Numbered from the stretch's first letter, positions 2,006 to 63,532 are shown. The stretch: 64,000 bases of DNA from Minisyncoccia bacterium (GCA_049720475.1 JBNASH010000035.1:84015-148014); one strand, 5' to 3'. The notes: generated from the letters alone by a model not told the origin. Numbers and translations: made by a program.

Positions 2006-2030
2006 GGCTCGCCTAGCGAGCCTTTTGTTT
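2006..2030. terminator. bidirectional intrinsic terminator (GGCTCGC-cta-GCGAGCC + TTTTGTTT)
   Basis: Perfect 7-bp GC-rich stem followed by a T-run, sitting between convergent genes. The stop codon and C-terminus of the minus-strand ORF lie inside it. Confidence 0.5.
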
Positions 2031-2681
2031 ATTTTTCTTATTGAAATTTCTCAGAGCTTCTTTTGTCAACTGCAATAATTTATCTGCTTCTTTTTGAGAA
2101 ATTTTTTCAATAACTTTGCGGAAATGAACAGTCACCCAATCGCCTTCTTTTAAATCTAAATCTAGCTCATTTTGAACAATCAATTCAACTTTCGGACCCA
2201 AAGTCAATTTGTCCTTTTTTAATGTTTTCGTAATTGGTTGATAAATTACCCACCACTCCCTATTTGAAATTTTGTCGCTAATTTTAGCTGGATGAACAAC
2301 ACAATCATCAACTAACTCTTCAACAATTTGATGCATTTTTATCTGAATGATAGGAATCAAAGTCGAAGCATTATGAATCCACTCCTCTCCTTTTAATTCT
2401 GGATTGCCTTTCCAATAAAAAGAAACGACTTCTTCATCAAATGGTTCTTTGTGATTTAACTGGGCGATTCGGCGATAAAAATCATAACTTAAAAGGTTTT
2501 TTAAAATTTTTTCAATTCTTTCCGCTTCACCTTTGCCATGACGGAAATAATCATACAAATCATTGGAAAATTTAAGCAAACGAGCTTTCTCGCAAACATA
2601 AGAATATTTAGCAGCTAATTTTAATCCTTCCCCTTCCATTTTATCCCTCCTTTTTAAAGAGCTTTTAGTGATGGCTGTCAT
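2013..2681 (-). CDS. hypothetical protein downstream of and overlapping hypC (17-nt overlap)
   Basis: 222-aa ORF co-directional and translationally coupled with hypC. No recognisable motif. Confidence 0.4.
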   Translation of the reverse strand: MTAITKSSLKRRDKMEGEGLKLAAKYSYVCEKARLLKFSNDLYDYFRHGKGEAERIEKILKNLLSYDFYRRIAQLNHKEPFDEEVVSFYWKGNPELKGEEWIHNASTLIPIIQIKMHQIVEELVDDCVVHPAKISDKISNREWWVIYQPITKTLKKDKLTLGPKVELIVQNELDLDLKEGDWVTVHFRKVIEKISQKEADKLLQLTKEALRNFNKKNKQKAR

Positions 2682-2963: not shown

Positions 2964-3263
2964 ATGAAAAAAGTTCTTGGTAAAATAGTTTTAATTTTAG
3001 CGATTGTTGCTTTTTTATTAAGTATTGCCATTATGGTTTTAAATAAAAAAGCTCCTCTACCACAAGAACAAATTGCTTTAAAAAATTGTTTAGAGAGCGG
3101 CGGCCAGGTTGTTTCTGCTTCCTGTTGTCTAAACACTTCTAATTTCCCTGATACTTGCTTAATTGGCGCTTGTGGTTGCGCACCAGACAAAAGCCACATA
3201 GTCCAAATCTGTGATTGCGGTCCTAATAAATGTTTTGATGGTAAAACTTGTGTAAATAGATAA
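2964..3263 (+). CDS. small membrane-anchored/secreted cysteine-rich peptide (10 Cys in a ~55-aa C-terminal domain)
   Basis: Strong SD (AAAGAGGG) 5 nt upstream of the ATG, an N-terminal hydrophobic helix, then a Cys-dense domain (C-x11-CC-x9-C-x4-C-x-C-x12-C-x-C-x4-C-x6-C). The overlapping antisense ORF 2858..3199 has no such support. Confidence 0.55.
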   Translation: MKKVLGKIVLILAIVAFLLSIAIMVLNKKAPLPQEQIALKNCLESGGQVVSASCCLNTSNFPDTCLIGACGCAPDKSHIVQICDCGPNKCFDGKTCVNR

Positions 3264-3265
3264 TT

Positions 3266-3294
3266 TTGACAAAATCATCTTCAAAGATTAAAAT
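3266..3294 (+). promoter_or_regulatory. sigma70-like promoter for tRNA-His (TTGACA-17-TAAAAT)
   Basis: Consensus -35 TTGACA at 3266-3271, a 17-nt spacer, TAAAAT at 3289-3294, and the tRNA starts 12 nt downstream. Confidence 0.4.
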
Positions 3295-3306
3295 TATTTT
3301 AGCAAT

Positions 3307-3383
3307 GGTGGCCTTAGTTCAGCGGCTAGAACGCCTCGTTGTGGCCGAGGAGGTCAGGGGTTCAAATCCCCTAGGCCACCCCA
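3307..3383 (+). tRNA. tRNA-His (anticodon GUG) with encoded G-1 and encoded CCA
   Basis: Cloverleaf folded by hand: acceptor stem GTGGCCT/AGGCCAC, extra 5' G pairing with discriminator C73, anticodon loop TTGTGGC, T-loop TTCAAAT. Confidence 0.9.
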
Positions 3384-3477
3384 AACCTCCTAATCTCAAG
3401 GGGGTTTTTCTTGCTTAATTTTTAAAATTAATTAAACTTAAGGCGGAACTTAAAAATTTCAAAAAAGGAGGAATAGA

Positions 3478-3891
3478 ATGAAAAAACATGATTGTTTTTT
3501 AACTATTCAAATTTTAGGAGAGGAGATCATTGCTCCCGTCATTGAAAAAATATTAAATAGTAGAATTACTAACATTCCCATTGATACTAAAAAAATCAAC
3601 AAAACAAGTAATGGATGCCAGAAAATTTATGAAGTTAGTACCAGTTATAGATATTATTGTCGTTTCAATTTATACCAATTAATTTTCAATATTCATCGGA
3701 GATTTATCCCCGATCATAATGACTTTACTGCTCAATTTATTTTCGAATTTAAACTGGGTAAAAAAGAGCCTGTTTTCCGCAGTTGGGAAGCCTACAGATT
3801 CCAGGAAGAAAAATTAAGTCAAGAAGAATTAAACGCCATTAAAAATTGCCTCTTAGAATTCTTTGGCAATTTTTCAGAAGGAAGCTTTTAA
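3478..3891 (+). CDS. hypothetical small protein (island gene 1)
   Basis: Strong SD AAAGGAGG 8 nt upstream, and an intrinsic terminator follows. Confidence 0.5.
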   Translation: MKKHDCFLTIQILGEEIIAPVIEKILNSRITNIPIDTKKINKTSNGCQKIYEVSTSYRYYCRFNLYQLIFNIHRRFIPDHNDFTAQFIFEFKLGKKEPVFRSWEAYRFQEEKLSQEELNAIKNCLLEFFGNFSEGSF

Positions 3892-3909
3892 AAATTATAA
3901 TTTAATAAA

Positions 3910-3940
3910 GAGGCCCTATAAAAGGGCTTCTTGTTTTTTT
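3910..3940 (+). terminator. intrinsic terminator (GAGGCCCT-ataaa-AGGGCTTC + T8)
   Basis: Hairpin plus a TTGTTTTTTT run. Confidence 0.5.
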
Positions 3941-3996
3941 AAAAAATCATGATAAATTATAGATGGCATTTAAAAAATTAAAGAAGGGGGTTTCGC

Positions 3997-4365
3997 ATGA
4001 AAAGAAAAATATTTATCGCCTTAGTAATTTTAATAATGATTCTTTTGACAATTCTTTTTGTCATCGTCAGGAAAAAATCCGATAATCTTTCAACCACTCA
4101 AGTATCTCTTGATCAAAAAAAGGAAATAATTGATCTAAAAAAGCTCGATCCGGACATACGATTAATTTGGCTTTCTGATGAAAACGGCAAAAATTTAAGA
4201 CCAGTTTTAATCCGTATTGGTATTAGCGATGGCCAATACACAGAAATAAAAGAAATTCTTTATGGCGAAATAAAAGAAGGTGATTTTGTTGTTACGGGCA
4301 AAACAACTCCTCAATCCAGCAGTTCCCAACAGGACATTAATAGAATTTTTAGAAGTTTAAGATGA
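3997..4365 (+). CDS. small membrane-anchored protein whose C-terminal half resembles the beta-barrel domain of HlyD/MFP-family periplasmic adaptor proteins
   Basis: Strong SD (GAAGGGGG). An N-terminal TM helix, then LRPVLIRIGISDGQYTEIKEILYGEIKEGDFVVTG, the characteristic C-terminal motif pattern of membrane fusion proteins. It is far too short for a full MFP. Confidence 0.45.
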   Translation: MKRKIFIALVILIMILLTILFVIVRKKSDNLSTTQVSLDQKKEIIDLKKLDPDIRLIWLSDENGKNLRPVLIRIGISDGQYTEIKEILYGEIKEGDFVVTGKTTPQSSSSQQDINRIFRSLR

Positions 4366-4375
4366 GGAGGCGATC

Positions 4376-4849
4376 ATGATCCATTTTTATAATTTAACCA
4401 ATGGTTTAGAAATAGTTGATATCTCAAAATATCCCCATATCACCCGCATCCAATCTTCTCACATCGAAGGAAAACATTGGAATCATCTTTTTGCTCAATT
4501 AAGCGATGAATTACTGTTCTATCTGGCAATTGGCAAAGAATGTGTTATCGTAGACGCTTCACCAAAACCCATACGCTCCAGTCTTGCTCGCATTGGAATA
4601 CCAGTTATTGTTTATATTTTATCTCGCATCTGGTTTCATAAAAAAATTGAACCCCAGACATTCGATAAACGATATCTTGAAAGTGTTTATCGTTCCTTAA
4701 CAAGAAGCACAAAAAATAAGTTAAAATATTATCGAAAATTTTTGCTGACCGATAGAATCAGATTGAAATGTTTTATCGGTTTTACAAAGAATGACGGCAA
4801 ATATCATATATTTAAAAAGAAAATCCAAAACCAAAAAGATGGCGATTAA
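4376..4849 (+). CDS. hypothetical protein (island gene 3); its last 5 codons and stop are supplied by the repeated terminator-promoter module
   Basis: Strong SD (GAGGAGG). The C-terminus QKDGD-stop is read out of repeat copy 1. Confidence 0.45.
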   Translation: MIHFYNLTNGLEIVDISKYPHITRIQSSHIEGKHWNHLFAQLSDELLFYLAIGKECVIVDASPKPIRSSLARIGIPVIVYILSRIWFHKKIEPQTFDKRYLESVYRSLTRSTKNKLKYYRKFLLTDRIRLKCFIGFTKNDGKYHIFKKKIQNQKDGD

Positions 4850-4900
4850 TCGCCATCTTTTTATTTGACAAAGAATTAAATCGGAATAATCTAAAAATGG
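4833..4900 (+). repeat. terminator-promoter module, copy 1 (hairpin GATGGCGATTAATCGCCATC + T-run, then TTGACA-16-TAATCT)
   Basis: About 60 nt near-identical to 5323..5390. Contains a perfect 8-bp-stem hairpin followed by TTTTTATTT and a consensus -35 hexamer. Confidence 0.8.
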
Positions 4901-4929
4901 CTCTTAAAATTTTAATAAGGAGGTGGCAA

Positions 4930-5310
4930 ATGCATAAAATATTCAATGAGGTCATTTTAAAATTTTGCGAACTTTTTCAATTTTACCCAACGCTTAATTT
5001 GTTTTTTCTTGAGGCCCAAAAAAAGAAATTAAATAACATAACAATTAAGCCGATCATGATTAAAACAGAATTTCCTCTTTCTGGAAATTATATATTAGAA
5101 GGAAGAATTGAACTACAAGCACCAGCAATCAAAGCTTTTTATATAAAACAGTGCTATGAGGCGCTGGTAAAAGCTTATTACGAAAATAAAGAGGCTTTTG
5201 AAAAAGAATGTAGAAATACAATCGAAGAAGAAGCAGAAAAAATTCGAAAAAAAGCAATCCAAAGAGGTCTAAATGTCATCACTTTAAAAATACAAGAAGA
5301 AGAGTGTTAA
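4930..5310 (+). CDS. small hypothetical protein, paralog A (preferred start is the ATG at 4930 with SD AAGGAGGTGG; the ORF track starts at 4897)
   Basis: Shares an N-terminal pattern F-x-Y-P-x-x-x-L-x-x-x-A-x-K-K-K-x(7)-I-x-P with the next gene (5420..5809). Confidence 0.5.
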   Translation: MHKIFNEVILKFCELFQFYPTLNLFFLEAQKKKLNNITIKPIMIKTEFPLSGNYILEGRIELQAPAIKAFYIKQCYEALVKAYYENKEAFEKECRNTIEEEAEKIRKKAIQRGLNVITLKIQEEEC

Positions 5311-5322
5311 AATAAAAATAGA

Positions 5323-5390
5323 AAAAGATGGCGATTAATCGCCATCTTTTTATTTGACAAAAAATTAAATTAGGTTAATCTAAGGGTGGT
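5323..5390 (+). repeat. terminator-promoter module, copy 2
   Basis: Same hairpin, T-run, TTGACA and TAATCT as copy 1. Confidence 0.8.
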
Positions 5391-5419
5391 TTGATTAAAA
5401 ATTTAAAAGGAGGGGTGAA

Positions 5420-5809
5420 ATGAAAAAAATGAAAAATTTAGTTAAAAGAGCATTTTTGACTGTTTCAAAATTTTTTAAAATATACCCGTCCATTCAATTA
5501 TTGATTGATGATGCCAAAAAAAAGAATGTTGAAAAATTGCTGATTATACCATATATCTCCATAAAAGAATCGTTAATGAGTAAAACGATAAAAAGGATTG
5601 ATGGTTTCATTGAAATTACAGCAGAAAATCTTCCAGCTGTTTGCTCCATAGAATGCAGCGATGCTTTCTCTAATTATTTATCATCTGAAGCAGAAGATGA
5701 AATATTTGAAGATTGTAAAGAGTCTTTATTAGAAACGGCAGAAATGTTTAAAAAATACCTGGAAGAGCATAATTTTAAAGTTGAGATTAAAAAAGTAAAA
5801 ATTTTATAA
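5420..5809 (+). CDS. small hypothetical protein, paralog B
   Basis: Strong SD AAAGGAGGGG. N-terminal similarity to paralog A (KFFKIYPSIQLLIDDAKKK vs ELFQFYPTLNLFFLEAQKKK). Confidence 0.5.
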   Translation: MKKMKNLVKRAFLTVSKFFKIYPSIQLLIDDAKKKNVEKLLIIPYISIKESLMSKTIKRIDGFIEITAENLPAVCSIECSDAFSNYLSSEAEDEIFEDCKESLLETAEMFKKYLEEHNFKVEIKKVKIL

Positions 5810-5823
5810 TTTTATACACAATA

Positions 5824-5850
5824 CGGGCCCAAAGGGGCTCGTTTTTTATT
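5824..5850 (+). terminator. intrinsic terminator after island
   Basis: GGGCCC..GGGGCTC imperfect hairpin followed by TTTTTTATT. Confidence 0.4.
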
Positions 5851-5858
5851 CTTCTCTC

Positions 5859-5886
5859 TTGATTTTCTTTAAATTCAAACTATAAT
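5859..5886 (+). promoter_or_regulatory. candidate promoter for rny (TTGATT-16-TATAAT)
   Basis: -35-like hexamer 5859-5864 and a perfect -10 TATAAT at 5881-5886. Confidence 0.4.
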
Positions 5887-6006
5887 AAAAATGTACTTTT
5901 TTAAATCGTATCTAAAGTCATTAAATTCTTTAATTTCGCTATAAAAAATTTGTGAAACCCTTTTTTGTAATTAAATCGCAATTTTTGAAAGGCGAAATCC
6001 ACTCAT

Positions 6007-7530
6007 ATGGAGACGCTTATTTTAGCATCTTTAGCAACCTTAATTTTAGGAATTTTTATCGGCTATCTCGCGCGACAAAATATTATCAAGCGCGAAATTG
6101 CCTCCGCTGAACAAAAAATTAAAAGTCAGTTAGAAGAAGCCAAAACTAAGGCTAAAGAAATTATTTTAGCCGCCAAAGATAAAGCTGCGGCTATTTTGGA
6201 TGAAGCTCAAAAAGAAGAAAAAGAAAGAAAAAAAGAGTTATCTGCTTTTGAACAACGTCTTAATCGACGCGAGGAGTTGCTCAATCAGAAACTCAGCGAA
6301 ACCGAAGCCAAAAATCGTTCTTTAGAAGAAAACATCAAAAAAGTAAAAGAAATAAAAGAAAAAGTTGAGGAAATCCGGCAAGAAGCTCAAAAAGAATTGG
6401 AAAGAATTGCTGGTTTGGGCGAGGAAGAAGCTAAAAAAGAATTGTTTTCAAAAATAGAAAACACCCATCGGCAAGAAATTACTGAATTATTGAAGCGGAT
6501 GGAAAAAGAAAAGCGTGATGAAATAGAAAAACAGGCTTTTAATCTTTTAGAAACTGCCATTCAACGATTGAGTAGATCAGTGAGCAGCGAAGTGACAACT
6601 TCTTCTTTTTCCATTCCAGATGAAGAAACCAAAGGAAAAATCATTGGCCGAGAAGGAAGAAATATTAGAACTTTAGAACGCCTGACTGGAGTAGATATTC
6701 TGATTGATGAATCACCAGATACAATCACTCTCTCCTCTTTTGATCCATTAAGGAGAGAATTGGCGAGAATTGCTTTAGAAAAACTCATTAAAGACGGCCG
6801 TATCCAACCCGCCAAAATCGAAGAAAAAGTTGAAGAAGCCCAAAAAGAATTAAACGAAAAAATCAAAGAAGCCGGAGAAAATGCTGCTTATGAATTAGGG
6901 ATTTTAGATTTACCCAAAGAGATTATTTATCTTTTGGGAAGATTAAATTATCGAACAAGTTACGGCCAAAATGTGCTCCAACACTCAATCGAAGCCGCTC
7001 ATCTAGCAAAAATGCTGGCCGCCGAATTAGGCGCTAATATTGAAGTAGCTAAAAAAGCGGCATTACTTCATGATATTGGCAAGGCTATTGATCATGAAGT
7101 TGAAGGTACTCATGTAGAGCTGGGAAGAAAAATTCTGCAAAAATACGGCGTTTCTGAAGAAATTATTAAAGCCATCGAAGCTCACCACGAGGATTATCCA
7201 TTTGAAACACCTGAGTCATTTATCGTTGCTGCCGCCGAAGCAATCTCTGCTAGCCGTCCTGGAGCAAGACGCGACAGTCTGGAAAATTACCTTAAAAGAT
7301 TGGAAAATCTTGAAAAAATTGCTCTTTCCTTTGACGGCGTTCAAAAAGCTTATGCAATTCAAGCTGGCCGGGAATTAAGAGTTTTTGTTATCCCGGAAAA
7401 AATCGATGATTTAGGGGCTTTAAATCTAGCTAAACAAATAGCCAATCGTATCCATGATGAATTAAATTACCCCGGCGAAATAAAAGTAAATGTGATTCGC
7501 GAAACAAGAGCCGTGGAATATGCTCGTTAA
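6007..7530 (+). CDS. rny: ribonuclease Y
   Basis: N-terminal TM helix, a long coiled-coil, a KH domain (IGREGRNIRTLE), and an HD domain (LHDIGK...H..G). Confidence 0.9.
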   Translation: METLILASLATLILGIFIGYLARQNIIKREIASAEQKIKSQLEEAKTKAKEIILAAKDKAAAILDEAQKEEKERKKELSAFEQRLNRREELLNQKLSETEAKNRSLEENIKKVKEIKEKVEEIRQEAQKELERIAGLGEEEAKKELFSKIENTHRQEITELLKRMEKEKRDEIEKQAFNLLETAIQRLSRSVSSEVTTSSFSIPDEETKGKIIGREGRNIRTLERLTGVDILIDESPDTITLSSFDPLRRELARIALEKLIKDGRIQPAKIEEKVEEAQKELNEKIKEAGENAAYELGILDLPKEIIYLLGRLNYRTSYGQNVLQHSIEAAHLAKMLAAELGANIEVAKKAALLHDIGKAIDHEVEGTHVELGRKILQKYGVSEEIIKAIEAHHEDYPFETPESFIVAAAEAISASRPGARRDSLENYLKRLENLEKIALSFDGVQKAYAIQAGRELRVFVIPEKIDDLGALNLAKQIANRIHDELNYPGEIKVNVIRETRAVEYAR

Positions 7531-13721: not shown

Positions 13722-15521
13722 TTAGGAAAGGCTTTTATCAAACATTTCCTTGGCTTTTTGGATTTGAAGCATTTGAGCAGGATTGGTGGTAATAATTTGA
13801 TCCTCAGTATAAGAAGCAATTACTTTAATAGCCACGTGTTTTGCCCCAGCGAAAAATATCCCTTCTCCCACATTAGCGCTTAAAAGCAGCTGTTTTTCTG
13901 CTTCGGTTAAATTAAATGTTTCAGCCACTACATCAATGGAGGCGGGCGATTGTTTTAAGAGTAATTGCAAAGCGGAGTTTGTAATAATAGGTTTGCCTTG
14001 GGGAGATTTAATAAAATCCTCCACATCTTGGGTAATAGTTGTAACACCCATATGATACTTGCGACAACGTTTGACTAAGCCAAAAAGAAAATCTGCACCA
14101 GCTGGATATTTCATCATCCACCAAGCTTCATCAACAATTAAAATTCTTTTCTTCATTTGGGAACGGATTAAATTCCAAATAAAGTTTAAAACCATATACA
14201 TAGCAATTGGCCGTAGTTCATCTTCTAAATCGCGAAGGGCAAAAACAACTAAACGATTATCAATATTAACATTGGTTGGATTGTTAAGAAAACCAGCAAA
14301 GGTGCCCCGGGTAAACTTAAATAATCGATCTGCCAATTCAGTACCTCCTTCCATATTTTCTAACACAGCCTGCAGATCTTCCATTAACGGCGGGGTTAAT
14401 TTTGTAAAATCGCTTTCGGGTGTAATATCGCGTGAAGCATAAGTTTCAGCAATTGCTCTATCTAAAATCCCAATCTGCTCTGAAGTTAAATCTCCCAACA
14501 TAATTCTTAATAAGCCGGTAAGATTCAAAATGTTTGATTTTAAAACCTCTTCCGGCGTTTCATCTGGCCGCGGAGGCGGTAAATCAAAAGGATTAATGTG
14601 ATGCTCAGAAGTTAAGGAAATATTTATAAACGAGCCACCAACGGTCTCTGCTAAATGTTGATATTCTTTTTCTGGATCAATAATAATTACGTCTGTTCCC
14701 ATCATCAAAGAACGCAAAACTTCTAATTTGCAGAAATAGGATTTACCACTACCTGATTTCGCGAAAATCACCATATTGCCATTTTCCAAAGAAAATCTAT
14801 CAAAAATAATTAAGCTATTATTATGGCGATTAATACCATAAAAAATTCCTTTGTCCGAAGTTAAATCTAGCGAAATAAAAGGGAAAAAGGTGGAAACCGG
14901 TGAAGAATTTAAAGTAGAATGAACATTTAAATAATCTTTATTCAAAGGAAAACAAGACAACAAACCCTCTGACTGTTGGAAAAGCGCAGGTTTTATATAA
15001 ACCATTCTCCCCTCTAAGAAATTAATGATTTTTTGCTCAATGGCTTCTAATTCTTTAAGATTAGAGGCGTAAATAGTTATATAAACTCCTACCTCAAATA
15101 ATTTCTCACGTGCTTGTTGCAAAGCATCACGTAAATTTTCTAAATCTTGATAAGCAGTTTCTAAAATCGGGTCTCTAACCAATCCTTTTTCTTCTCTTTC
15201 CAAAAGTTGGGCTTCCACTTGAGCGACCTTCCTTCTTAATTGTTTCAAAGCCACTCCAGTATCAACGGGATGGATAAAAATGGAAACATCAACTGTTTGG
15301 TCAATGTTTAAAACTGGCGAAAACCAACCAGAAGTAAGATATCGAGGATAAGAAATAATATAGTGGGTTTTAGTATATAAATCGCCCAATCGGACGTAGG
15401 TTGATTCAATTTCTAAAGCCGGCGGTGTTAAAATTTCTCTAATAGTTTGCAACCCCGTCCGGGACGGTTTGGGAATTTTTATTTCTTCATCTTTTTTTTG
15501 TGAAAATGGTAAAATTGGCAT
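13722..15521 (-). CDS. VirB4/TrbE/CagE-family T4SS ATPase, C-terminal 599-aa portion (conserved domain + Walker A/B)
   Basis: Walker A FAKSGSGKS and a Walker B ILIVDEAWWM (the DEAW motif typical of VirB4). An N-terminal YTKTHYIISYP...W region like the CagE_TrbE_VirB domain. Confidence 0.8.
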   Translation of the reverse strand: MPILPFSQKKDEEIKIPKPSRTGLQTIREILTPPALEIESTYVRLGDLYTKTHYIISYPRYLTSGWFSPVLNIDQTVDVSIFIHPVDTGVALKQLRRKVAQVEAQLLEREEKGLVRDPILETAYQDLENLRDALQQAREKLFEVGVYITIYASNLKELEAIEQKIINFLEGRMVYIKPALFQQSEGLLSCFPLNKDYLNVHSTLNSSPVSTFFPFISLDLTSDKGIFYGINRHNNSLIIFDRFSLENGNMVIFAKSGSGKSYFCKLEVLRSLMMGTDVIIIDPEKEYQHLAETVGGSFINISLTSEHHINPFDLPPPRPDETPEEVLKSNILNLTGLLRIMLGDLTSEQIGILDRAIAETYASRDITPESDFTKLTPPLMEDLQAVLENMEGGTELADRLFKFTRGTFAGFLNNPTNVNIDNRLVVFALRDLEDELRPIAMYMVLNFIWNLIRSQMKKRILIVDEAWWMMKYPAGADFLFGLVKRCRKYHMGVTTITQDVEDFIKSPQGKPIITNSALQLLLKQSPASIDVVAETFNLTEAEKQLLLSANVGEGIFFAGAKHVAIKVIASYTEDQIITTNPAQMLQIQKAKEMFDKSLS

Positions 15522-17929: not shown

Positions 17930-19843
17930 TTATGTTATTGGCTTTCCACTCGAACTAACCAAAGTTGGTCCTTCTAAATTTTTCTTAAACCACATTCGAC
18001 CATTAAAACCACTTTTTATTTTCTTTCTAAATTCTTTTTTGGTCTCCTCATCCATTGTTTCATAGGCGCGTTTAATTTCTGAAGTTAATTGGTCTAATTT
18101 AGGTAAATCAAGATTTCTCAGCTCGCTCGCTGCCTGTTCAGGATTTGTTTCAAGCTTTAATTGTATAACGCCCGAAAGAACAATAGGATCTTTAATTTTA
18201 TCCAGTTTGATACTCTCAACTTCTATATCGGCTTTTCTAATAGCTTTAATCACTTCCTCGGACTTACCAGTTTTAACCGCTGATTGAACATCAGGATGCC
18301 ACTCGGGATGATCTTTAATGATTTTCTTATAATCTTCTTTACTATATTTGCTTAACAAAGGCAAGGCTTTATCTTTATTCGAATCATCAATCCCGCCTTT
18401 TTTAGCTAAAACAGCAAACATCGCCGCTCTTTCTTCAGGTATTAAAGCAGAATTGGCCATTTGTTTTAACTGCTCTACACTCACATTTTCATATTTCTTT
18501 ACTCTATTACTCCATTCCTTATTCTTAACCTCCTCGGCTTTGCGAGAAACATAACGACTAGCCATACCCAAACCGGTAAGACTAATAGCCGCTCTTGCTA
18601 ATTCATTCTTACTAGCCGCCTTCTCTAAACCAGTTGCTGGAACATTGGCCGCTCTTAACGCCCATAAGGAAGCCTTTCCTTTAACAGCTCCTGATGCTTT
18701 CCTTCCTGTTTCTTTGGCAAAATCCAAAGTCTTCTTAGCTATTTCTACACCCATTTTTTCTCCAGCTATTAATCCCGCCACAATAAATCCTGCCACTAAA
18801 AACATCTGCATTACGCTCTGTAAATTGTACATTACAGAACTCATACCACCCGCTGTGAGTGTCCCTGGAATATGCAATTGCTTAACATGCGAAGCTGTTT
18901 CAAGAGCCAAATAAACGAAAAATCCCATTACTGGTGCTACAAAACACCACTGCAAAAATTTACTCCACCATTGTTTGGATATACCAGCCGGTGTGCCAGG
19001 AATTGAAATTAATGATATTACCCAGGCCAGCGGTGCAAAAATTAATAAAATCCATAACCAGAAAAGACGCACAAACAAAATACCAACCAAAGCACCAAAA
19101 ATTATAATGACTAAAAAGCTAAAAACAATTGTGAAGGCTAACTTTGCTATACCCATCAGAGCAGTTTTCTCTTCCGCCCCTACCATTTGCGCTTGTATCC
19201 ATGATGTCCATTCCGCCTCAGTCGAACTAGCTGTTGGCGTAGCAACAACCTGACTTTGCATAAATGTTTGCAACGTCAAAGCATCGGCTAAAGCATTGGT
19301 AAATCTTACCCCGCCCAATCCAGTAGGATCTGCCCCTAGGGAGCCAAAAATAAAATATCTGAAAAACATATTTGAAAAATCAATAATAGCCCCGCCTATC
19401 ATTAAACTAAAATTAATCAAAATTGCCATAATAATCATTTTGACTAACAATCCTTTTGTTTGTCTTGATTGCACTCTTAAAATATAAGAAAAGGCGATAT
19501 AAATTAAAATTACGATAAACAAAATATTTGCAAAATCACGAGCAATTCTCCAACCAGTTTGAACTACAGGCAGAGTAGTAAATGCCGAAGCATTAACTAC
19601 TAAAGCCAAAATTTTTGCTTCTAAAATAATAATTTGGGAAGCAAGAAGAGCAATAAGATGGGCTACCCAACTAAAAATAGAATAGATTGCTGTTGAGGTA
19701 AAATCACCAATACTAAAAAGAGAGAAAGCGTGTGTTTTGAAAATTATGAAAAGATTAATAAACAAACCAAAAATCAACCCTTGAATTAAAGAGATTTTTC
19801 TAAATTTTATTTTTTGAATGATGCTTTTTATTCTTTTAAACAT
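17930..19843 (-). CDS. VirB6/TrbL-like polytopic inner-membrane protein with a hydrophilic C-terminal extension
   Basis: At least 7 hydrophobic helices in the N-terminal ~370 aa, then a ~260-aa charged C-terminal domain, the VirB6-family architecture. Located in the T4SS-like cluster. Confidence 0.5.
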   Translation of the reverse strand: MFKRIKSIIQKIKFRKISLIQGLIFGLFINLFIIFKTHAFSLFSIGDFTSTAIYSIFSWVAHLIALLASQIIILEAKILALVVNASAFTTLPVVQTGWRIARDFANILFIVILIYIAFSYILRVQSRQTKGLLVKMIIMAILINFSLMIGGAIIDFSNMFFRYFIFGSLGADPTGLGGVRFTNALADALTLQTFMQSQVVATPTASSTEAEWTSWIQAQMVGAEEKTALMGIAKLAFTIVFSFLVIIIFGALVGILFVRLFWLWILLIFAPLAWVISLISIPGTPAGISKQWWSKFLQWCFVAPVMGFFVYLALETASHVKQLHIPGTLTAGGMSSVMYNLQSVMQMFLVAGFIVAGLIAGEKMGVEIAKKTLDFAKETGRKASGAVKGKASLWALRAANVPATGLEKAASKNELARAAISLTGLGMASRYVSRKAEEVKNKEWSNRVKKYENVSVEQLKQMANSALIPEERAAMFAVLAKKGGIDDSNKDKALPLLSKYSKEDYKKIIKDHPEWHPDVQSAVKTGKSEEVIKAIRKADIEVESIKLDKIKDPIVLSGVIQLKLETNPEQAASELRNLDLPKLDQLTSEIKRAYETMDEETKKEFRKKIKSGFNGRMWFKKNLEGPTLVSSSGKPIT

Positions 19844-29474: not shown

Positions 29475-29489
29475 CGACCGAATATTTAG

Positions 29490-29835
29490 TGGAGATGGCG
29501 GGAATCGAACCCGCGTCGGCGAAAAAGTTGATTTTCAAGCTTTCCAGACAATCAGCCGATTTATCTTAAGGGTTAATATTTAAAATCGGCAAAATTATTA
29601 ACCCCCGTCTTTGGTGTTAGGTTGCTTTTCTAGCCAAAGACACCTAGAAAAAGCCGAGCTCGATAATTTGACACCCTTCTGGCCTATCGAGCATCAGCCA
29701 GTCGGATGGGCTTATGCTAAAGCAAAAGCCAAGTTTCTGCTAAAATTGGCAGTTTTTCTTTCTCGCTTTTTTACGAGGTAGCGAACCCTCGGTCTGACTT
29801 GAAAATGCTTTTTCGCCTCGAGGCCAATCATCCCC
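29490..29835 (-). ncRNA. ssrA: tmRNA (ssrA)
   Basis: 5' end GGGGAUGAUUGG... (G3:U70 alanine identity pair) and a 3' tRNA-like end GCGGGUUCGAUUCCCGCCAUCUCCA, near-identical to E. coli ...GCGGGUUCAACUCCCGCCAGCUCCA. A tag-like reading frame ...GCCAAUUUUAGCAGAAACUUGGCUUUUGCUUUAGCAUAA is present. smpB lies immediately downstream. Confidence 0.85.
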
Positions 29836-38379: not shown

Positions 38380-39249
38380 CTAAGCCAAGGACTTTATTTT
38401 TTGATCAAAAAAATCCAAAATCTCTCTGAAATTATGCTCATCTAAATGTTTAAAGGTGTTTATTTTTTTCTCTACTTCTTCTCTGCTCATAAAAAAATCC
38501 TTATTGTTTGCTTTCCCATTTTTTATTAATTCTAAAAGCTCTCTAAATTTAGCTTGGATTTGATGAGCTAAAGAAACATCAATACTTTTTTCAGTAATTA
38601 TCCAGCCAATCTCTTCAAAATGGAAAATTCGATTTTCATCAATCCGAAAATTTTGACCATCATAAGCAACTAAAGAATGGGGTGGTATAGAAGCAGATGA
38701 AGATAAACGAACACCAGGCTCAATATATACTTCATTTGCTATTTCACAAGGAGCAACAATTGTTACATTAGCACCAATAAAACACCTGTCTCCAATTTTT
38801 GTTTTTGAATCATTATAACCATTATTAGCAGCAATCACTACATGAGGCTGAAAAACGGTTTTTTCACCAACAAAAGCATCTTCCAAATAACAACCGGCAT
38901 TAATGTTTGTTTCGTCTTCAATAAAACTAGAAAAAACAAAACTATGATGCTTAATTTTGACGCATTTGCCAAACTTACTCAGCAATAATGTTGAATAATA
39001 AACAATCATTTCCTCTTTAGCTTCAATATCGCGCAGTTGGGAATGAATAATCAAACTTTCTGCGCCAATTTTAACGTTTCTCAAATGAGAGAAAAAAATT
39101 CGACAATCGGAAGAAATATTAATATCTTCTTCTAAATGACTTGGTGGCAAAATAACTGAATGAGGACCAATAACACAATTAATCTCTGGCAAACAAAAAG
39201 GAACATTTTTGGTTTGAATAATATCATCCACATAGTAAAATGCACTCAT
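38380..39249 (-). CDS. left-handed beta-helix (hexapeptide-repeat) protein, function unknown
   Basis: Repeated [LIV]-G-x-x-x-x hexapeptide-like units (IGANVTIVAPCEIANEVYIEPGVRL). Confidence 0.45.
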   Translation of the reverse strand: MSAFYYVDDIIQTKNVPFCLPEINCVIGPHSVILPPSHLEEDINISSDCRIFFSHLRNVKIGAESLIIHSQLRDIEAKEEMIVYYSTLLLSKFGKCVKIKHHSFVFSSFIEDETNINAGCYLEDAFVGEKTVFQPHVVIAANNGYNDSKTKIGDRCFIGANVTIVAPCEIANEVYIEPGVRLSSSASIPPHSLVAYDGQNFRIDENRIFHFEEIGWIITEKSIDVSLAHQIQAKFRELLELIKNGKANNKDFFMSREEVEKKINTFKHLDEHNFREILDFFDQKIKSLA

Positions 39250-48937: not shown

Positions 48938-49393
48938 AAGATCAGAAAACCCTGCCGGTGGGCAGGATTTTCTGATCTTTGTTTCTTCAATAAGAATAAG
49001 CCGAATTCTGTACCCATAAAGGGCGGCAACCATTTATCTTGACGCGGTATTGCTACCACGTTCAGAGCGATCTACCTGTCGCTTGCGCGACAACTTGATC
49101 TTGCACCAGGAAGGGTTTGCCACCTCTAATTGTCACCAATTAGAGTTGGGAGCTCTTACCTCCACTCTTTTCACCCTTGGTCACCTCAAAAAATACTGAG
49201 GTGGCCGGTATAGTTTCTGTGGCACTTTCCCTAATCACGTTTAAACGTGATCGGTTGCGGTTAGCAACTTCCTTCTTCTGCTATCTTCCTAAGAAAATAG
49301 CAGGGTGTTCGGACTTTCCTCTGTTGATGTTTATTATTGATGATTGCTCATCTCAAAACACCAACAGCAGTTGCCTACTTATTGAAGAAACTG
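48938..49393 (-). ncRNA. rnpB: RNase P RNA (bacterial type, minus strand) including 3' terminator hairpin 48938..48980
   Basis: Reverse complement contains the P4 strands GAGGAAAGTCCGAACACC (cf. E. coli GAGGAAAGUCCGGGCUCC) and GGGTACAGAATTCGGCTTA (cf. ACAGAACCCGGCUUA). Also GGGAAAGTGCCACAGAAA, GGTAAGAGCTCCC, and a P1 pairing AGTTTCTTCAATAAG/CTTATTGAAGAAAC. A long perfect hairpin + T-run sits at the 3' end. Confidence 0.75.
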
Positions 49394-62067: not shown

Positions 62068-62110
62068 AAAGCCCCTCGACCTTTTAGTCTCGGGGCTTGT
62101 GTTTTTTTCA
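62068..62110. terminator. bidirectional terminator (GCCCC..GGGGC hairpin flanked by T-runs on both strands)
   Basis: Read directly. Separates the AT-rich fdx gene from the GC-richer minus-strand gene. Confidence 0.5.
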
Positions 62111-63532
62111 AAACCTAAGGAGGATTCCCCCTTGGATTCGCCAAGGGGAAATTTCAAGAGGAAGAATATTCGTGTTCGTGTTGCTGAGCAGCCGGCGGCC
62201 CTGAACAAAAAGAGGACCGAGCTCCAAGGAAAGCCCTATGTAAGGGCATGTTGAAGTGGTCCTAAATTTTTCAACCACTTCAACACAATTCTCCTTGGTT
62301 AAAGCCTCCTCTTTGAACGGATACAACTTTGTGTAAGTTGTATCCGTGATCCTGGTTCCCCTGTGGACCCTCCACAAGATTCCACCCTCCGGATCAATAT
62401 TCAAATTCTTCCCCAACTGCAGCTGGTATTTAATCCCAGCTGTGAACTCTTGAATCCGGACATTCTCCCGGATCAAGAGCTCGTTCCAATCTCGATGGAG
62501 TCCCACATAATAAACATATGTGGGAGGACAAGTGGTAGTCGAACTACTGCCATATTCCCCCAACAGCCTCATTTCATCAATTACCATACTCTCTTTCCCT
62601 TCATATTGGGAAAAAGAGTATTTTCCCACTTGGAAATAAGATCCACCAATGAACAGGTTTTTCCATATCTCTAATTCTACCTCCACATAGAAGGGAAAAT
62701 TTTTTCCCTTCTGAAAATTCACGACATTATGCTGCCAGAGTAAAACACTCTGGCCGAGTGCAAAAGGCACGCCATTACTCTGCGTATAGTACCACATGGC
62801 GGTCCCGTCTTCGCAATAGAAGACGGAATCACCTTGAGGAACAAGAGAAAAGAAGTCAAAGCGCTCAGTGGAATAATCAACGGAGTCTGGCAATTTCATC
62901 CCTGCCCAACCGGCCCCCACTTTAATTTTTACCGTGGGAGACCACGTCTTTACTGTCGGAACTGGCTTCGGCGTTAAAACCGGCTGAGGTTGAGGTTGAG
63001 GAGCTGGCGGCTGAACTGGAGGAATTATTACCGGTTGCTCTTTTTGTTCTTTCTTCTCTTCAGCAACTGGTTTCACCGGCGCTTCTCTCATTTCGAGAAG
63101 CGCGATATTACCGCACCGAACAGGAATAATGAAGGTAAATTCCTTCCCTTCCACTTCCAACTTGAACTGGTACGCCTGGAAGGACTCTATTCCTGCCCAG
63201 CGCAAACCTTTAAGCAATCTCCCTTTTGAATACATCATCCAAAACATTTTCTGACCTGGCTGAACTTCAACCAGATCAAGCCGTAACTGATCGAGCTGCT
63301 CATAGAGAGCAGCATAGGTCGCTTCCCCCAAGGCGCCGCCGGGGAAGTAATCCAGGGCCCTACCTACCTCTTCATTCACCTTTTTCAAGAGGTTCTTCAC
63401 CTCTTGGGGTGATTGAAGATAGGGGCTCAACGGGGCCCTTCCTAACTGTCTTAATTCCAACTCCTGTCCAACTGCCGCTGTCACCAGCGACAGCACCAGA
63501 CAAAAAACCAAAAAAATTCCTCGTTTTTTCAT
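62108..63532 (-). CDS. secreted protein with Pro-rich linker and C-terminal beta-rich domain ending ...GGILLRF (outer-membrane beta-barrel-like C-terminal signature); compositionally foreign
   Basis: Signal peptide MKKRGIFLVFCLVLSLVTAAVGQ. A PVIIPPVQPPAPQPQPQPVLTPKPVP linker. Alternating hydrophobic C-terminus with terminal Phe. Codon usage (CTG, CCG, GAG, CTC) and G+C visibly higher than the rest of the window. Strong SD AAGGAGG 7 nt before the ATG. Confidence 0.6.
   Translation of the reverse strand: MKKRGIFLVFCLVLSLVTAAVGQELELRQLGRAPLSPYLQSPQEVKNLLKKVNEEVGRALDYFPGGALGEATYAALYEQLDQLRLDLVEVQPGQKMFWMMYSKGRLLKGLRWAGIESFQAYQFKLEVEGKEFTFIIPVRCGNIALLEMREAPVKPVAEEKKEQKEQPVIIPPVQPPAPQPQPQPVLTPKPVPTVKTWSPTVKIKVGAGWAGMKLPDSVDYSTERFDFFSLVPQGDSVFYCEDGTAMWYYTQSNGVPFALGQSVLLWQHNVVNFQKGKNFPFYVEVELEIWKNLFIGGSYFQVGKYSFSQYEGKESMVIDEMRLLGEYGSSSTTTCPPTYVYYVGLHRDWNELLIRENVRIQEFTAGIKYQLQLGKNLNIDPEGGILWRVHRGTRITDTTYTKLYPFKEEALTKENCVEVVEKFRTTSTCPYIGLSLELGPLFVQGRRLLSNTNTNILPLEISPWRIQGGILLRF

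What the first reader, a model, noticed from the sequence alone, without database searches (positions are those of the whole stretch)
2964..5850. tRNA-His-adjacent island of six small genes with strong Shine-Dalgarno sites in an otherwise SD-poor genome
Housekeeping genes in this window (rny, hup, rnpA, yidC, ftsH, leuS, rtcB, iscR-like, fdx and others) have no recognisable SD within 15 nt of their starts. By contrast, every gene in 2964-5809 has a strong one (AAAGAGGG, AAAGGAGG, GAAGGGGG, GAGGAGG, AAGGAGGTGG, AAAGGAGGGG). These genes are all short (99-157 aa), each has its own promoter-like and terminator elements, and the block sits immediately next to a tRNA gene, a classic integration hotspot. 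The contents are a Cys-rich exported peptide, a TM-anchored fragment of a membrane-fusion-protein beta-barrel, two paralogous small proteins, and two unknowns. This could be a toxin/bacteriocin-immunity or other accessory module, possibly acquired horizontally from an SD-using donor or phage. No integrase is present.
Basis: seen in the sequence. Interest (0 to 1): 0.7.

Follow-up and report, generated by a model that had tools for sequence, protein, structure and literature searches.

The report
SD-led accessory gene cassette, Paceibacterota
In a small-genome CPR bacterium whose core genes start translation without a Shine-Dalgarno ribosome-binding motif, five small fast-evolving genes between tRNA-His and rny each carry a textbook one; the contrast is real and conserved in related species, so it marks a distinct class of accessory, partly phage-related genes and not a recent foreign insertion.

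Summary
Five consecutive genes (P2-P6, 3478-5809) have canonical SDs (GGAGG or GGGGG, 5-6 nt before ATG, -11.5 to -13.5 kcal/mol). About 60 other genes, including rny, hup, rnpA, yidC, ftsH, leuS, rtcB, Rrf2, iscS and fdx, have none. A run of 5 among 8 SD-led genes of 68 has p=3e-4. P1's motif is weak and is absent from its orthologues.

The recent-HGT reading is not supported. The cassette lies in the same place (P1, tRNA-His, P2/P3, P4, P5/6, rny) in at least four species-level relatives (Rny 85-92% identical), with the SDs and promoters conserved. GC3 and codon usage are native. There is no integrase and no att repeat. One relative has an empty site and an outgroup carries other genes there, so the site is variable.

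Across 82 Paceibacterota loci, widely shared families have SDs at chance level (about 2-3%), against 8-11% of lineage-restricted ORFs. P4 belongs to an undescribed family found mostly in phage contigs, with a confident predicted fold that has no PDB match. Its CPR copies always keep a strong SD.

Protein functions remain unknown. The bacteriocin and MFP-fragment ideas found no support. The 16S anti-SD could not be checked.

The parts
2964..3263 (+). P1: 99-aa protein with an N-terminal membrane or signal anchor and a 10-Cys C-terminal domain. It is a conserved neighbour on the left of tRNA-His and is not part of the SD-led set.
   Evidence: ORF. SD energy only -6.3. Orthologues are 45-59% identical in L003, L083/L128 and L124-type loci and have no SD. 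No family hit.
3308..3383 (+). tRNA-His (GTG). A TTGACA-17-TAAAAT promoter-like site lies at 3266-3294 and a terminator-like hairpin at 3383-3407.
   Evidence: ARAGORN, Rfam, promoter and terminator scan. The same tRNA sits upstream of rny in L003, L004 and L006.
3464..3891 (+). P2 unit: SD AAAGGAGG (3464-3471), 6 nt, ATG 3478; 137-aa orphan protein. The terminator is at 3908-3932.
   Evidence: Only 2-3 homologues among 1.84 billion representatives. Orthologues in L083/L128 (48%) and L130 (41%). Absent from L003-type loci. Upstream TTGYTT...TAAACT and the SD are conserved.
3983..4365 (+). P3: SD GAAGGGGG (3983-3990), ATG 3997; 122 aa. It has an N-terminal TM helix and a small, highly conserved beta-strand C-terminal domain. 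It is the first gene of the P3-P4 bicistron.
   Evidence: 8 homologues only, all about 125 aa and without a Pfam domain. Alignment A3. AF2 pLDDT 63: helix 2-29 and strands 54-99. No MFP match.
4364..4849 (+). P4: SD GAGGAGG (4364-4370, overlapping the last base of the P3 stop codon), ATG 4376; 157-aa cytoplasmic alpha/beta protein of an undescribed family shared by phages and CPR bacteria. Invariant residues include NLTxGxE, RIQS, C56 and KLKYYRKFLL.
4833..4870 (+). Perfect 30-nt palindromic terminator (4833-4862) directly abutting the TTGACA -35 box (4865-4870) of the P5 promoter. It is part of the 75-nt repeat 4820-4894.
4917..5310 (+). P5 unit: SD AAGGAGGTGG (4917-4926), ATG 4930; 126-aa protein, paralogue of P6.
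   Evidence: Family alignments A2 and A5. Relatives carry a single copy.
5322..5359 (+). Second copy of the identical 30-nt palindromic terminator (5322-5351) followed by TTGACA (5354-5359), the P6 promoter. It is part of the 75-nt repeat 5309-5383 (87% identical to the first copy).
5406..5842 (+). P6 unit: SD AAAGGAGGGG (5406-5415), ATG 5420, 129 aa, stop at 5809. The terminator is at 5823-5842, which is the right end of the cassette.
   Evidence: No homologue by word-index search. 31-35% identical to the single-copy orthologues.
5859..7530 (+). Right flank: the rny promoter-like site (5859-5886), a conserved ~120-nt leader, and rny (6007-7530). rny has no SD in this clade.
   Evidence: The synteny anchor for all relatives.
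2013..2650 (-). DUF6390/HypC-like gene just left of the block. It is also SD-led (AAAGGAGGG, 6 nt, ATG at 2639).
   Evidence: The SD is also present in the L083 orthologue (-8.7).

Best explanation
The segment from about 3384 to 5842 is a clade-specific accessory gene cassette. It sits between tRNA-His and rny in a genus-level group of Paceibacterota (Parcubacteria, CPR).

**Anatomy.** It consists of four self-contained expression units: P2, P3-P4, P5 and P6. Each has a sigma-70-type promoter, usually a TTGACA box placed directly after the previous terminator. Each has a short leader, a canonical Shine-Dalgarno sequence 5-6 nt before the ATG, and an intrinsic terminator.

**The SDs are real ribosome-binding sites kept by selection in this host.** The host's core genes initiate without an SD, from A-rich, G-poor leaders with U at position -1. 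The local contrast is therefore one instance of a lineage-wide split into two classes. Widely shared genes are SD-less. A minority of lineage-restricted genes are SD-led, and some of these descend from phage or other foreign DNA.

**History.** The cassette was present in the common ancestor of the clade. It has since been inherited vertically while being remodelled: P2 or P3 lost in some lineages, P5/6 duplicated here, and the whole cassette deleted in one lineage.

**Inferred, not shown.**
1. The ribosome of this organism carries a usable anti-SD.
2. The SD gives these genes high or separately controlled translation.
3. The very fast protein divergence, together with P4's phage ancestry, points to a role in phage-host or cell-cell conflict at the envelope. 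The candidates are the membrane-anchored P3 together with the enzyme-like cytoplasmic P4, plus the P5/6 proteins.
For: **SD contrast and clustering.**

**SD spacing.** All eight SD-led genes in the window have a spacing of 5-6 nt.

**Conserved synteny.**
- L003 (Rny 86%): P1h, tRNA-His, P3h, P4h, P5/6h, rny.
- L083/L128 (Rny 88%): hydrogenase, DUF6390, HypC, P1h, P2h, P3h, P4h, P5/6h, rny, hup, sigma, rpmH, rnpA, yidC.
- L124-127 and L129-134: same cassette.
- L199 (Rny 92.5%): P4h, P5/6h, rny.

**SDs and promoter boxes conserved in otherwise diverged intergenic DNA.**

**Site variability.** L004 has an empty site, with tRNA-His followed 195 nt later by rny. The outgroup L006 carries two unrelated genes at the same site, one with AAGGAGGTGG. 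L130 lacks P3.

**Native composition.**. **No att repeat.**

**Lineage-wide pattern.**
- 7.1% of 1515 ORFs in 82 loci are SD-led.
- SD-led ORFs make up 11.4% of locus-unique ORFs and 7.9% of those shared by 1-4 other loci. They make up 2.9% of those shared by 5 or more other loci, and 2.2% of shadow ORFs, which is the chance level.
- Very strong SDs are 13-fold above chance, and only in the non-conserved classes.
- Spacing peaks at 4-6 nt.
- At family level, 0 of 30 families present in 5 or more loci are predominantly SD-led, against 76 of 699 narrower families.

**P4.**
- All 14 closer homologues (45% identity or more) keep a strong SD. This includes copies in other genomic contexts whose neighbours have 0 of 16, 1 of 9 and 0 of 6 SD-led genes.
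- More distant relatives lie in phage contigs that are mostly 45-68% SD-led.

**Distinct start contexts.** U at position -1 occurs in 67% of SD-less genes, 22% of all ATGs and 0 of the 8 SD-led genes.

**Fast divergence.** P5/6 are 31-42%, P2 48%, P3 52% and P4 65-68% identical where Rny is 88-92% and HU 94-100%.
Against: - The 16S rRNA 3' end of this genome is not in the window or in any fetched locus. Tsurumaki et al. 2022 (PMC9297842) detected the anti-SD motif in only 48% of Parcubacteria 16S genes. A usable anti-SD is therefore inferred from conservation, not observed.
- Only P4 has detectable phage relatives. P2, P3 and P5/6 gave none.
- Not every SD-led gene looks accessory. The hexapeptide transferase, DUF6390 and, in 11 distant Paceibacterota, rny itself have SDs.
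- The conserved class in the lineage survey contains only about 30 families, all from around rny. The family-level contrast is therefore modest (0/30 against 10.9%, p about 0.03).
- Gene calls were made with a simple longest-ORF heuristic.
- No expression data exist, and no function was found for any of the proteins.
Confidence: 0.65

Rival explanations
1. One reading: a recently acquired genomic island, from an SD-using donor or a phage, that integrated at tRNA-His. Its SDs are leftovers of the donor's translation signals.
For: It is adjacent to a tRNA. Occupancy of the site varies: empty in L004, different genes in L006. P4 has phage relatives. A truly foreign-looking SD-led gene exists elsewhere in the window (62108-63532, GC3 50%).
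Against: Synteny is conserved in at least four species-level relatives. SDs and promoters are conserved while the proteins are 30-65% identical. GC3 and codon usage are native. There is no integrase, no duplicate of the tRNA 3' end and no phage structural gene.
Confidence: 0.08
2. Native high-expression genes. The SDs say nothing about ancestry. In this lineage an SD, together with a consensus -35 box, is simply the way to obtain high or condition-specific output from a small number of genes, native or not.
For: SD-led genes in the window include a hexapeptide acetyltransferase and the hyp-linked DUF6390. rny is SD-led in 11 distant Paceibacterota. All SD-led units have near-consensus promoters. 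Composition is native.
Against: SD-led genes are strongly enriched among lineage-restricted ORFs and are at chance level in widely shared families. P4 has phage relatives. The compositionally foreign gene at 62108-63532 is SD-led. The ribosomal-protein and translation-factor genes seen in the window and in L086 (L20, L35, IF3, L10, L7/L12, S2, EF-Ts), which are normally the most highly expressed, have no SD.
Confidence: 0.2
3. A toxin/bacteriocin-immunity or small-peptide secretion module: P1 as the Cys-rich exported peptide, P3 as a truncated membrane-fusion adaptor, and the remaining genes as immunity or accessory proteins.
For: P1 has an N-terminal hydrophobic anchor and 10 Cys in about 55 residues. 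P3 is membrane-anchored with an extracytoplasmic beta domain. P5 and P6 are paralogues. The proteins evolve fast.
Confidence: 0.07
4. The GGAGG motifs are not ribosome-binding sites. They are chance matches or binding sites for another factor.
For: The anti-SD of this genome has not been seen, and some Parcubacteria reportedly lack it. GGAGG is not depleted in the window (64 observed against 51 expected).
Against: The spacing to the ATG is fixed at 5-6 nt in all eight cases, and no other GGAGG sits at the 5' end of a gene. The chance rate in shadow ORFs is 2.2%, or 0.4% for very strong matches. The motifs are conserved in orthologues within otherwise diverged leaders. The motif is an exact complement of the canonical anti-SD.
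Confidence: 0.04

Closest known systems
SD-poor translation in Bacteroidia (e.g. Flavobacterium johnsoniae), with rare SD-bearing genes such as rpsU (McNutt et al. 2023, PMC9976891, seen; details of the Bacteroidia system are from my own knowledge)
   Same: Most genes lack an SD and have A-rich start contexts. A small minority of genes carry an extended, conserved SD that is thought to give them separate translational control.
   Different: The phylum is different (CPR/Paceibacterota). Here the SD-led genes are mostly lineage-restricted accessory ORFs and not a ribosomal-protein gene. bS21, which sequesters the anti-SD in Bacteroidia, is reported to be often absent in Parcubacteria, and the anti-SD itself was detected in only 48% of them (PMC9297842). 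Whether the mechanism is the same was not tested.
Phage 'morons': autonomous promoter-gene-terminator cassettes inserted between conserved genes (lambdoid phages; from my own knowledge)
   Same: Each unit is a single small ORF, or a pair, with its own promoter, strong RBS and terminator, placed between conserved neighbours. Gene content is mosaic between relatives. One member (P4) has phage homologues.
   Different: The cassette lies in a cellular chromosome with no prophage around it. The compositional deviation typical of morons is absent. It is inherited vertically across species.
tRNA-linked genomic islands and integrative elements
   Same: It lies immediately 3' of a tRNA gene, occupancy varies among relatives, and the cargo is accessory.
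   Different: There is no integrase, no att direct repeat and no compositional signature. The cassette is stable across species.
Anti-SD-lacking Parcubacteria (Tsurumaki et al. 2022, RNA 28:1041, PMC9297842)
   Same: The same broad lineage, and the same genome-wide lack of SDs in core genes.
   Different: [quoted passage not shown] Here, conserved canonical SDs with canonical spacing on a subset of genes argue that SD pairing is used in this clade.

Membership tests
Canonical Shine-Dalgarno-led initiation | Purine-rich motif complementary to the 16S 3' tail (GGAGG core) | tested here: met
   AAAGGAGG, GAGGAGG, AAGGAGGTGG and AAAGGAGGGG are canonical. GAAGGGGG (P3) is near-canonical. Energies are -11.5 to -13.5 kcal/mol.
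Canonical Shine-Dalgarno-led initiation | Spacing of about 5-9 nt between the SD core and the start codon | tested here: met
   5-6 nt in all eight SD-led genes of the window. Across the 82 loci the spacing peaks at 4-6 nt.
Canonical Shine-Dalgarno-led initiation | Motif maintained by selection, i.e. conserved in orthologues | tested here: met
   Conserved in L003, L083 and L124 for P2, P3, P4 and P5/6. Conserved in 14 of 14 closer P4 homologues.
Canonical Shine-Dalgarno-led initiation | Anti-SD (CCUCC) present at the 3' end of the organism's 16S rRNA | not testable with these tools
   No 16S rRNA in the window (Rfam) or in any fetched locus.
tRNA-linked integrative genomic island | Integrase or recombinase gene | tested here: not met
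   No such ORF in 2.6-6.1 kb. No Pfam or PHROG hit.
tRNA-linked integrative genomic island | Direct repeat of the tRNA 3' end (att site) at the far boundary | tested here: not met
   The 21-nt 3' end of tRNA-His occurs once in the window, allowing up to 3 mismatches. No such repeat.
tRNA-linked integrative genomic island | Composition or codon usage deviating from the host | tested here: not met
   GC3 0.256 against 0.266+-0.046. Codon-usage distance p about 0.08.
tRNA-linked integrative genomic island | Presence/absence polymorphism among close relatives | tested here: met
   Empty site in L004, different genes in L006, mosaic content in L003, L130 and the window.
Membrane-fusion protein (HlyD/MacA-type periplasmic adaptor), for P3 | Profile match to MFP beta-barrel or C-terminal domains | tested here: not met
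   No MFP family at E<=10 in any of 8 family members. No MFP chain in a profile search of PDB sequences or in phmmer.
Membrane-fusion protein (HlyD/MacA-type periplasmic adaptor), for P3 | Structural match of the beta domain to MFP domains | tested here: inconclusive
Bacteriocin/toxin-immunity or known anti-phage defence system | Match of any component to known precursor, transporter, immunity or defence families | tested here: not met
   No significant hit in Pfam, NCBIfam, PHROGs or PADLOC for P1-P6.
Prophage remnant or phage-derived genes | Homologues in phage genomes | tested here: inconclusive
   P4: yes, 33 IMG/VR contigs, phage MMB025 and a phage-like contig L089. P2, P3 and P5/6: none found. 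No structural or replication phage genes are nearby.

The most novel reading that the evidence does not exclude
Paceibacterota run two separate translation-initiation regimes. Core genes use an SD-independent mode (A-rich leader, U at -1). A distinct set of fast-evolving accessory and phage-derived genes uses a conserved SD-dependent mode. That second channel could be regulated separately, for example through accessibility of the anti-SD, or exploited by their phages. On this reading the P3-P4-P5/6 cassette is a conflict module built around a new-fold enzyme family shared with phages.
Probability: 0.2. Interest if true: 0.75.

Novelty: new variant of a known kind. Interest (0 to 1): 0.5.

Why it matters
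CPR bacteria have unusual, reduced ribosomes, and a published survey concluded that many Parcubacteria may not form SD helices at all. This clade has no SD on its core genes. It nevertheless keeps perfect, correctly spaced SDs on a small set of lineage-restricted genes, and has done so across species.

If that holds genome-wide, SD presence could serve as a simple sequence marker for a separately translated accessory or phage-derived gene class in these uncultured organisms. It would also make the question of whether CPR ribosomes use the anti-SD directly testable. The tests are the 16S 3' ends, metatranscriptomes and metaproteomes of the digester samples that hold these genomes, and in vitro translation.

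The work also flags a widespread, unannotated phage/CPR protein family (P4). Its predicted fold is confident and has no solved relative.

Tried and rejected
- **Family searches.** Pfam, NCBIfam, PHROGs and PADLOC on all six proteins gave nothing significant.
- **P5 as a Holliday-junction-resolvase-like endonuclease.** The weak hit (Endonuc_Holl, E 0.0015) is not seen in any other of 8 family members, so it was rejected.
- **P3 as an MFP fragment.** No support.
- **Viral-contig scans.** None found for P2, P3 and P5/6.
- **P6 word-index homologue search.** It returned only the query itself.
- **P4 gene neighbourhoods in phages.** No consistent functional partner. Integrase, metallophosphoesterase and DNA methyltransferase neighbours come from a few related phage lineages.
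- **att-site search.** Negative.
- **Compositional HGT test.** Negative.
- **Finding the 16S 3' end.** It is absent from the window and from all loci. The NCBI source contig could not be walked, because the look-up returned only short Logan contigs.
- **Supplement of PMC9297842.** Not held.
- **Literature searches for an SD core/accessory split in CPR.** Nothing was found beyond PMC9297842.
- **First SD classifier.** The motif-only version missed P3's GGGGG and picked up internal TTG/GTG false starts. It was replaced by an energy threshold with a shadow-ORF control.

Full report
**What is in the sequence.** The window has 34% G+C. Between a NiFe-hydrogenase/hypC cluster and rny it contains:
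- P1 (2964-3263)
- tRNA-His (3308-3383)
- P2 (3478-3891)
- P3 (3997-4365)
- P4 (4376-4849)
- P5 (true start 4930, to 5310)
- P6 (5420-5809)

All are on the + strand.

I scored the 18-20 nt before each candidate start against the 16S 3' tail ACCUCCUUA. P2-P6 score -11.5 to -13.5 kcal/mol and P1 scores -6.3. Nearly all other ORF-called genes are weaker than -4 at their start.

A start-independent count agrees. GGAGG followed 5-6 nt later by the ATG that opens a gene occurs seven times in 64 kb: P2, P4, P5, P6, DUF6390 (2013-2639, -), a hexapeptide transferase (38380-39249, -) and a 474-aa secreted protein (62108-63532, -). P3 has GGGGG at 6 nt. A run of five consecutive SD-led genes among 8 of 68 has p=3.2e-4.

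The SD-less genes include LeuS, RtcB, FtsH, LigA, FtsK, Rrf2, IscS, NifU and ferredoxin (Pfam). They also include RNase Y, HU, sigma-70, L34, RnpA, YidC and Jag, whose identities come from the Pfam families of the orthologous locus.

SD-less starts sit in A-rich, G-poor leaders. Position -1 is U in 67% of them, against 22% of all ATGs and 0 of the 8 SD-led genes.

**Expression units.** Terminator-like hairpins follow tRNA-His, P2, P4, P5 and P6 (7 found against 2.3 expected). P3 and P4 are 10 nt apart, and the SD of P4 overlaps the end of the P3 stop codon. There are therefore four units: P2, P3-P4, P5 and P6.

Alignment of the upstream regions of orthologues shows conserved promoter boxes. 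These are TTGACAAA...TAAKMT for P5/6, TGNTAAAYT for P3 and TTGYTT...TAAACT for P2. Each is followed by the SD, and the rest of the intergenic DNA has diverged.

The terminator and -35 segment before P5 and before P6 is a 75-nt repeat, 87% identical, with an identical 30-nt palindrome. The two proteins are only 26% identical.

**Origin and relatives.** Exact protein look-ups name the source as an NCBI MAG, 'Patescibacteria group bacterium' (tags ACP5IX_00405 to 00420). Relatives found through RNase Y are Paceibacterota.

The window, L003, L004 and L083 are about equidistant, with Rny 85-88% identical. L199 is closer, at 92.5%. The occupancy of the site is:

| Locus | Content between tRNA-His and rny |
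|---|---|
| L003 | P1h, tRNA-His, P3h, P4h, one P5/6h, rny (no P2; different left flank) |
| L083/L128 | Full arrangement from the hydrogenase to yidC, with P2h and a single P5/6h |
| L124-127, L129-134 | Same cassette as L003, with three different left flanks |
| L130 | P2h, P4h, P5/6h, without P3 |
| L004 | Clean empty site: tRNA-His, terminator, rny promoter, rny |
| L006 (outgroup, Rny 73%) | Two unrelated minus-strand genes, one with AAGGAGGTGG |

The cassette is therefore old within the clade and inherited vertically. It is remodelled by loss and duplication at a variable site. It is not a recent insertion.

Consistent with this, GC3 (0.256 against 0.266+-0.046) and codon usage (p about 0.08) are native. 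No copy of the tRNA 3' end marks a boundary.

**The SDs are conserved.**
- In L003, P3h, P4h and P5/6h have AAAGGAGGT-type SDs and P1h has none.
- In L083, P2h, P3h, P4h, P5/6h and DUF6390 score -8.7 to -12.1, while P1h and all housekeeping neighbours score near 0.
- Of the 14 closer P4 homologues recovered from metagenomes (45% identity or more), 13 score -10.2 to -12.9 and one scores -8.2. This includes copies in quite different neighbourhoods whose other genes have 0 of 16, 1 of 9 and 0 of 6 strong SDs.

A relic of a foreign donor would not persist like this, so the motif is under selection in these hosts.

**Lineage-wide pattern.** In 82 Paceibacterota loci (1515 heuristic ORFs), 7.1% have a strong SD.

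| ORF class | SD-led | Very strong (<= -11 kcal/mol) |
|---|---|---|
| Locus-unique | 11.4% | 5.2% |
| Shared with 1-4 loci | 7.9% | 5.3% |
| Shared with 5 or more loci | 2.9% | 0.3% |
| Shadow ORFs inside conserved genes (chance level) | 2.2% | 0.4% |

Spacing in the non-conserved class peaks at 4-6 nt.

At family level, none of 30 families present in 5 or more loci is predominantly SD-led, against 76 of 699 narrower families. This contrast is modest (p about 0.03), because the conserved class holds few families.

There are exceptions. rny itself is SD-led in 11 distant Paceibacterota. The hexapeptide transferase and DUF6390 are SD-led in this window.

**The proteins.**
- **P4** belongs to a family with invariant NLTxGxE, RIQS, C56 and KLKYYRKFLL motifs (alignment A1).
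  - AlphaFold gives a confident alpha/beta model (pLDDT 93, pTM 0.88).
  - More distant relatives (27-40% identity) lie in 33 IMG/VR viral contigs, in Alicyclobacillus phage MMB025 next to a DNA methyltransferase, in a phage-like contig (L089), and in many metagenome contigs, among them 110-120-kb human-gut assemblies.
  - Most of those contigs are SD-rich.
- **P3** has a TM helix followed by a small, highly conserved beta domain. It has only 8 homologues, none with a Pfam domain. The proposed MFP relationship found no support.
- **P2** is an orphan, with 2-3 homologues among 1.84 billion representatives.
- **P5/6** form a small clade-restricted family with no detectable relatives.
- **P1** is a Cys-rich anchored or secreted protein with no family hit.

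All of them diverge much faster than their flanks. P5/6 are 31-42%, P2 48%, P3 52% and P4 65-68% identical where Rny is 88-92% and HU 94-100%.

**Interpretation.** Several things are shown directly. The region is a conserved, clade-specific cassette of four autonomous expression units. Its canonical SDs are maintained by selection in a genome and lineage whose widely shared genes have SDs only at chance level. One component has phage ancestry or is shared with phages.

Three things are inferred. First, the ribosome has a usable anti-SD. Second, the SD provides strong or separately controlled translation. Third, the fast divergence and the phage link point to a conflict-type or envelope-related role.

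The anti-SD could not be checked. This matters because Tsurumaki et al. [quoted passage not shown] The conserved, correctly spaced SDs seen here argue the opposite for this clade.

**Verdict.** The recent-HGT, bacteriocin and MFP interpretations are not supported. The feature is best seen as a local, well-preserved example of a split between core and accessory genes in SD use in Paceibacterota. I found no paper in the searchable library that describes this split. Interest is moderate. Its value lies in the translation-mechanism question and in the new P4 family, not in the island as a mobile element.

Noticed in passing
window 62108-63532 (-), upstream signals to 63620: A 474-aa protein with a signal peptide, a Pro-rich linker and a C-terminal ...GGILLRF. 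Its GC is 47% and GC3 50%, against 34% and 27% for the genome. It has its own terminator, a TTGACA-17-TAGAAT promoter and a TAAGGAGGT SD, and no family hit. It is the best candidate in the window for a recent horizontal acquisition, much better than the flagged island.
   Followed up: partly
window 5886-6006 (rny leader); L003 9880-10000; L004 262-380; L083 7023-7143; L124 8395-8515: The ~120-nt rny 5' leader contains two blocks conserved across the clade: ATTTCGCTATAAAAAATTTGTGAAAC and AATCGCAATTTTTGAAAGGCGAAATCCA. They can form a long-range hairpin that covers a weak GAAAGG 12-17 nt before the ATG. No covariation was seen, so the structure is unproven. rny carries a real SD in 11 more distant Paceibacterota.
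   Followed up: partly
window 4820-4894 and 5309-5383: A 75-nt intergenic repeat (87% identical, with an identical 30-nt palindromic terminator and a TTGACA box) precedes two paralogues whose proteins are only 26% identical. This suggests gene conversion or strong constraint on the regulatory segment. Short-read Logan contigs break exactly here.
   Followed up: partly
window, all SD-less gene starts: SD-less genes have U at position -1 in 67% of cases (22% for all ATGs) and A at 46-54% of positions -7 to -2. AAAAU-AUG is about 16-fold enriched. None of the 8 SD-led genes has U at -1. This could reflect an extended codon-anticodon or Kozak-like start context.
   Followed up: partly
L006 1981-2661 (-): In the outgroup lineage, the tRNA-His to rny gap holds a different gene: a 226-aa multi-TM protein that also has a perfect AAGGAGGTGG SD. 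Beside it is a 128-aa gene with no SD.
   Followed up: no
L102, L108, L115, L121 (IMG/VR contigs): Four of the P4-bearing viral contigs are almost devoid of strong SDs (0-6% of ORFs), while the rest are 20-68% SD-led. They may infect SD-independent hosts such as CPR or Bacteroidota.
   Followed up: no
window about 10.5-23 kb (-), e.g. 13722-15521, 17930-19843: A run of large membrane or secreted proteins, with what looks by eye like a VirB4/TraC-like ATPase in the raw translations (not run against any profile library). The orthologous region in L124/L125 has a Pfam T4SS_pilin hit. This looks like a type IV secretion or pilus-like cluster downstream of yidC/jag.
   Followed up: no
window 48982-49386 (-) and 29487-29835 (-): RNase P RNA (class A) and tmRNA are present in the window (Rfam). 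No rRNA gene is present.
   Followed up: yes
L124, L125/L126, L127: left of the 87-aa/P1h genes: Identical P3h proteins occur on contigs with three different left flanks: MgtC/amino-acid permease, SecDF/ThyX/ParB-fusion, and PGM/RbfA. The window and L083 have the hydrogenase/hyp cluster there. The region left of P1 is therefore a recombination breakpoint in this clade.
   Followed up: no
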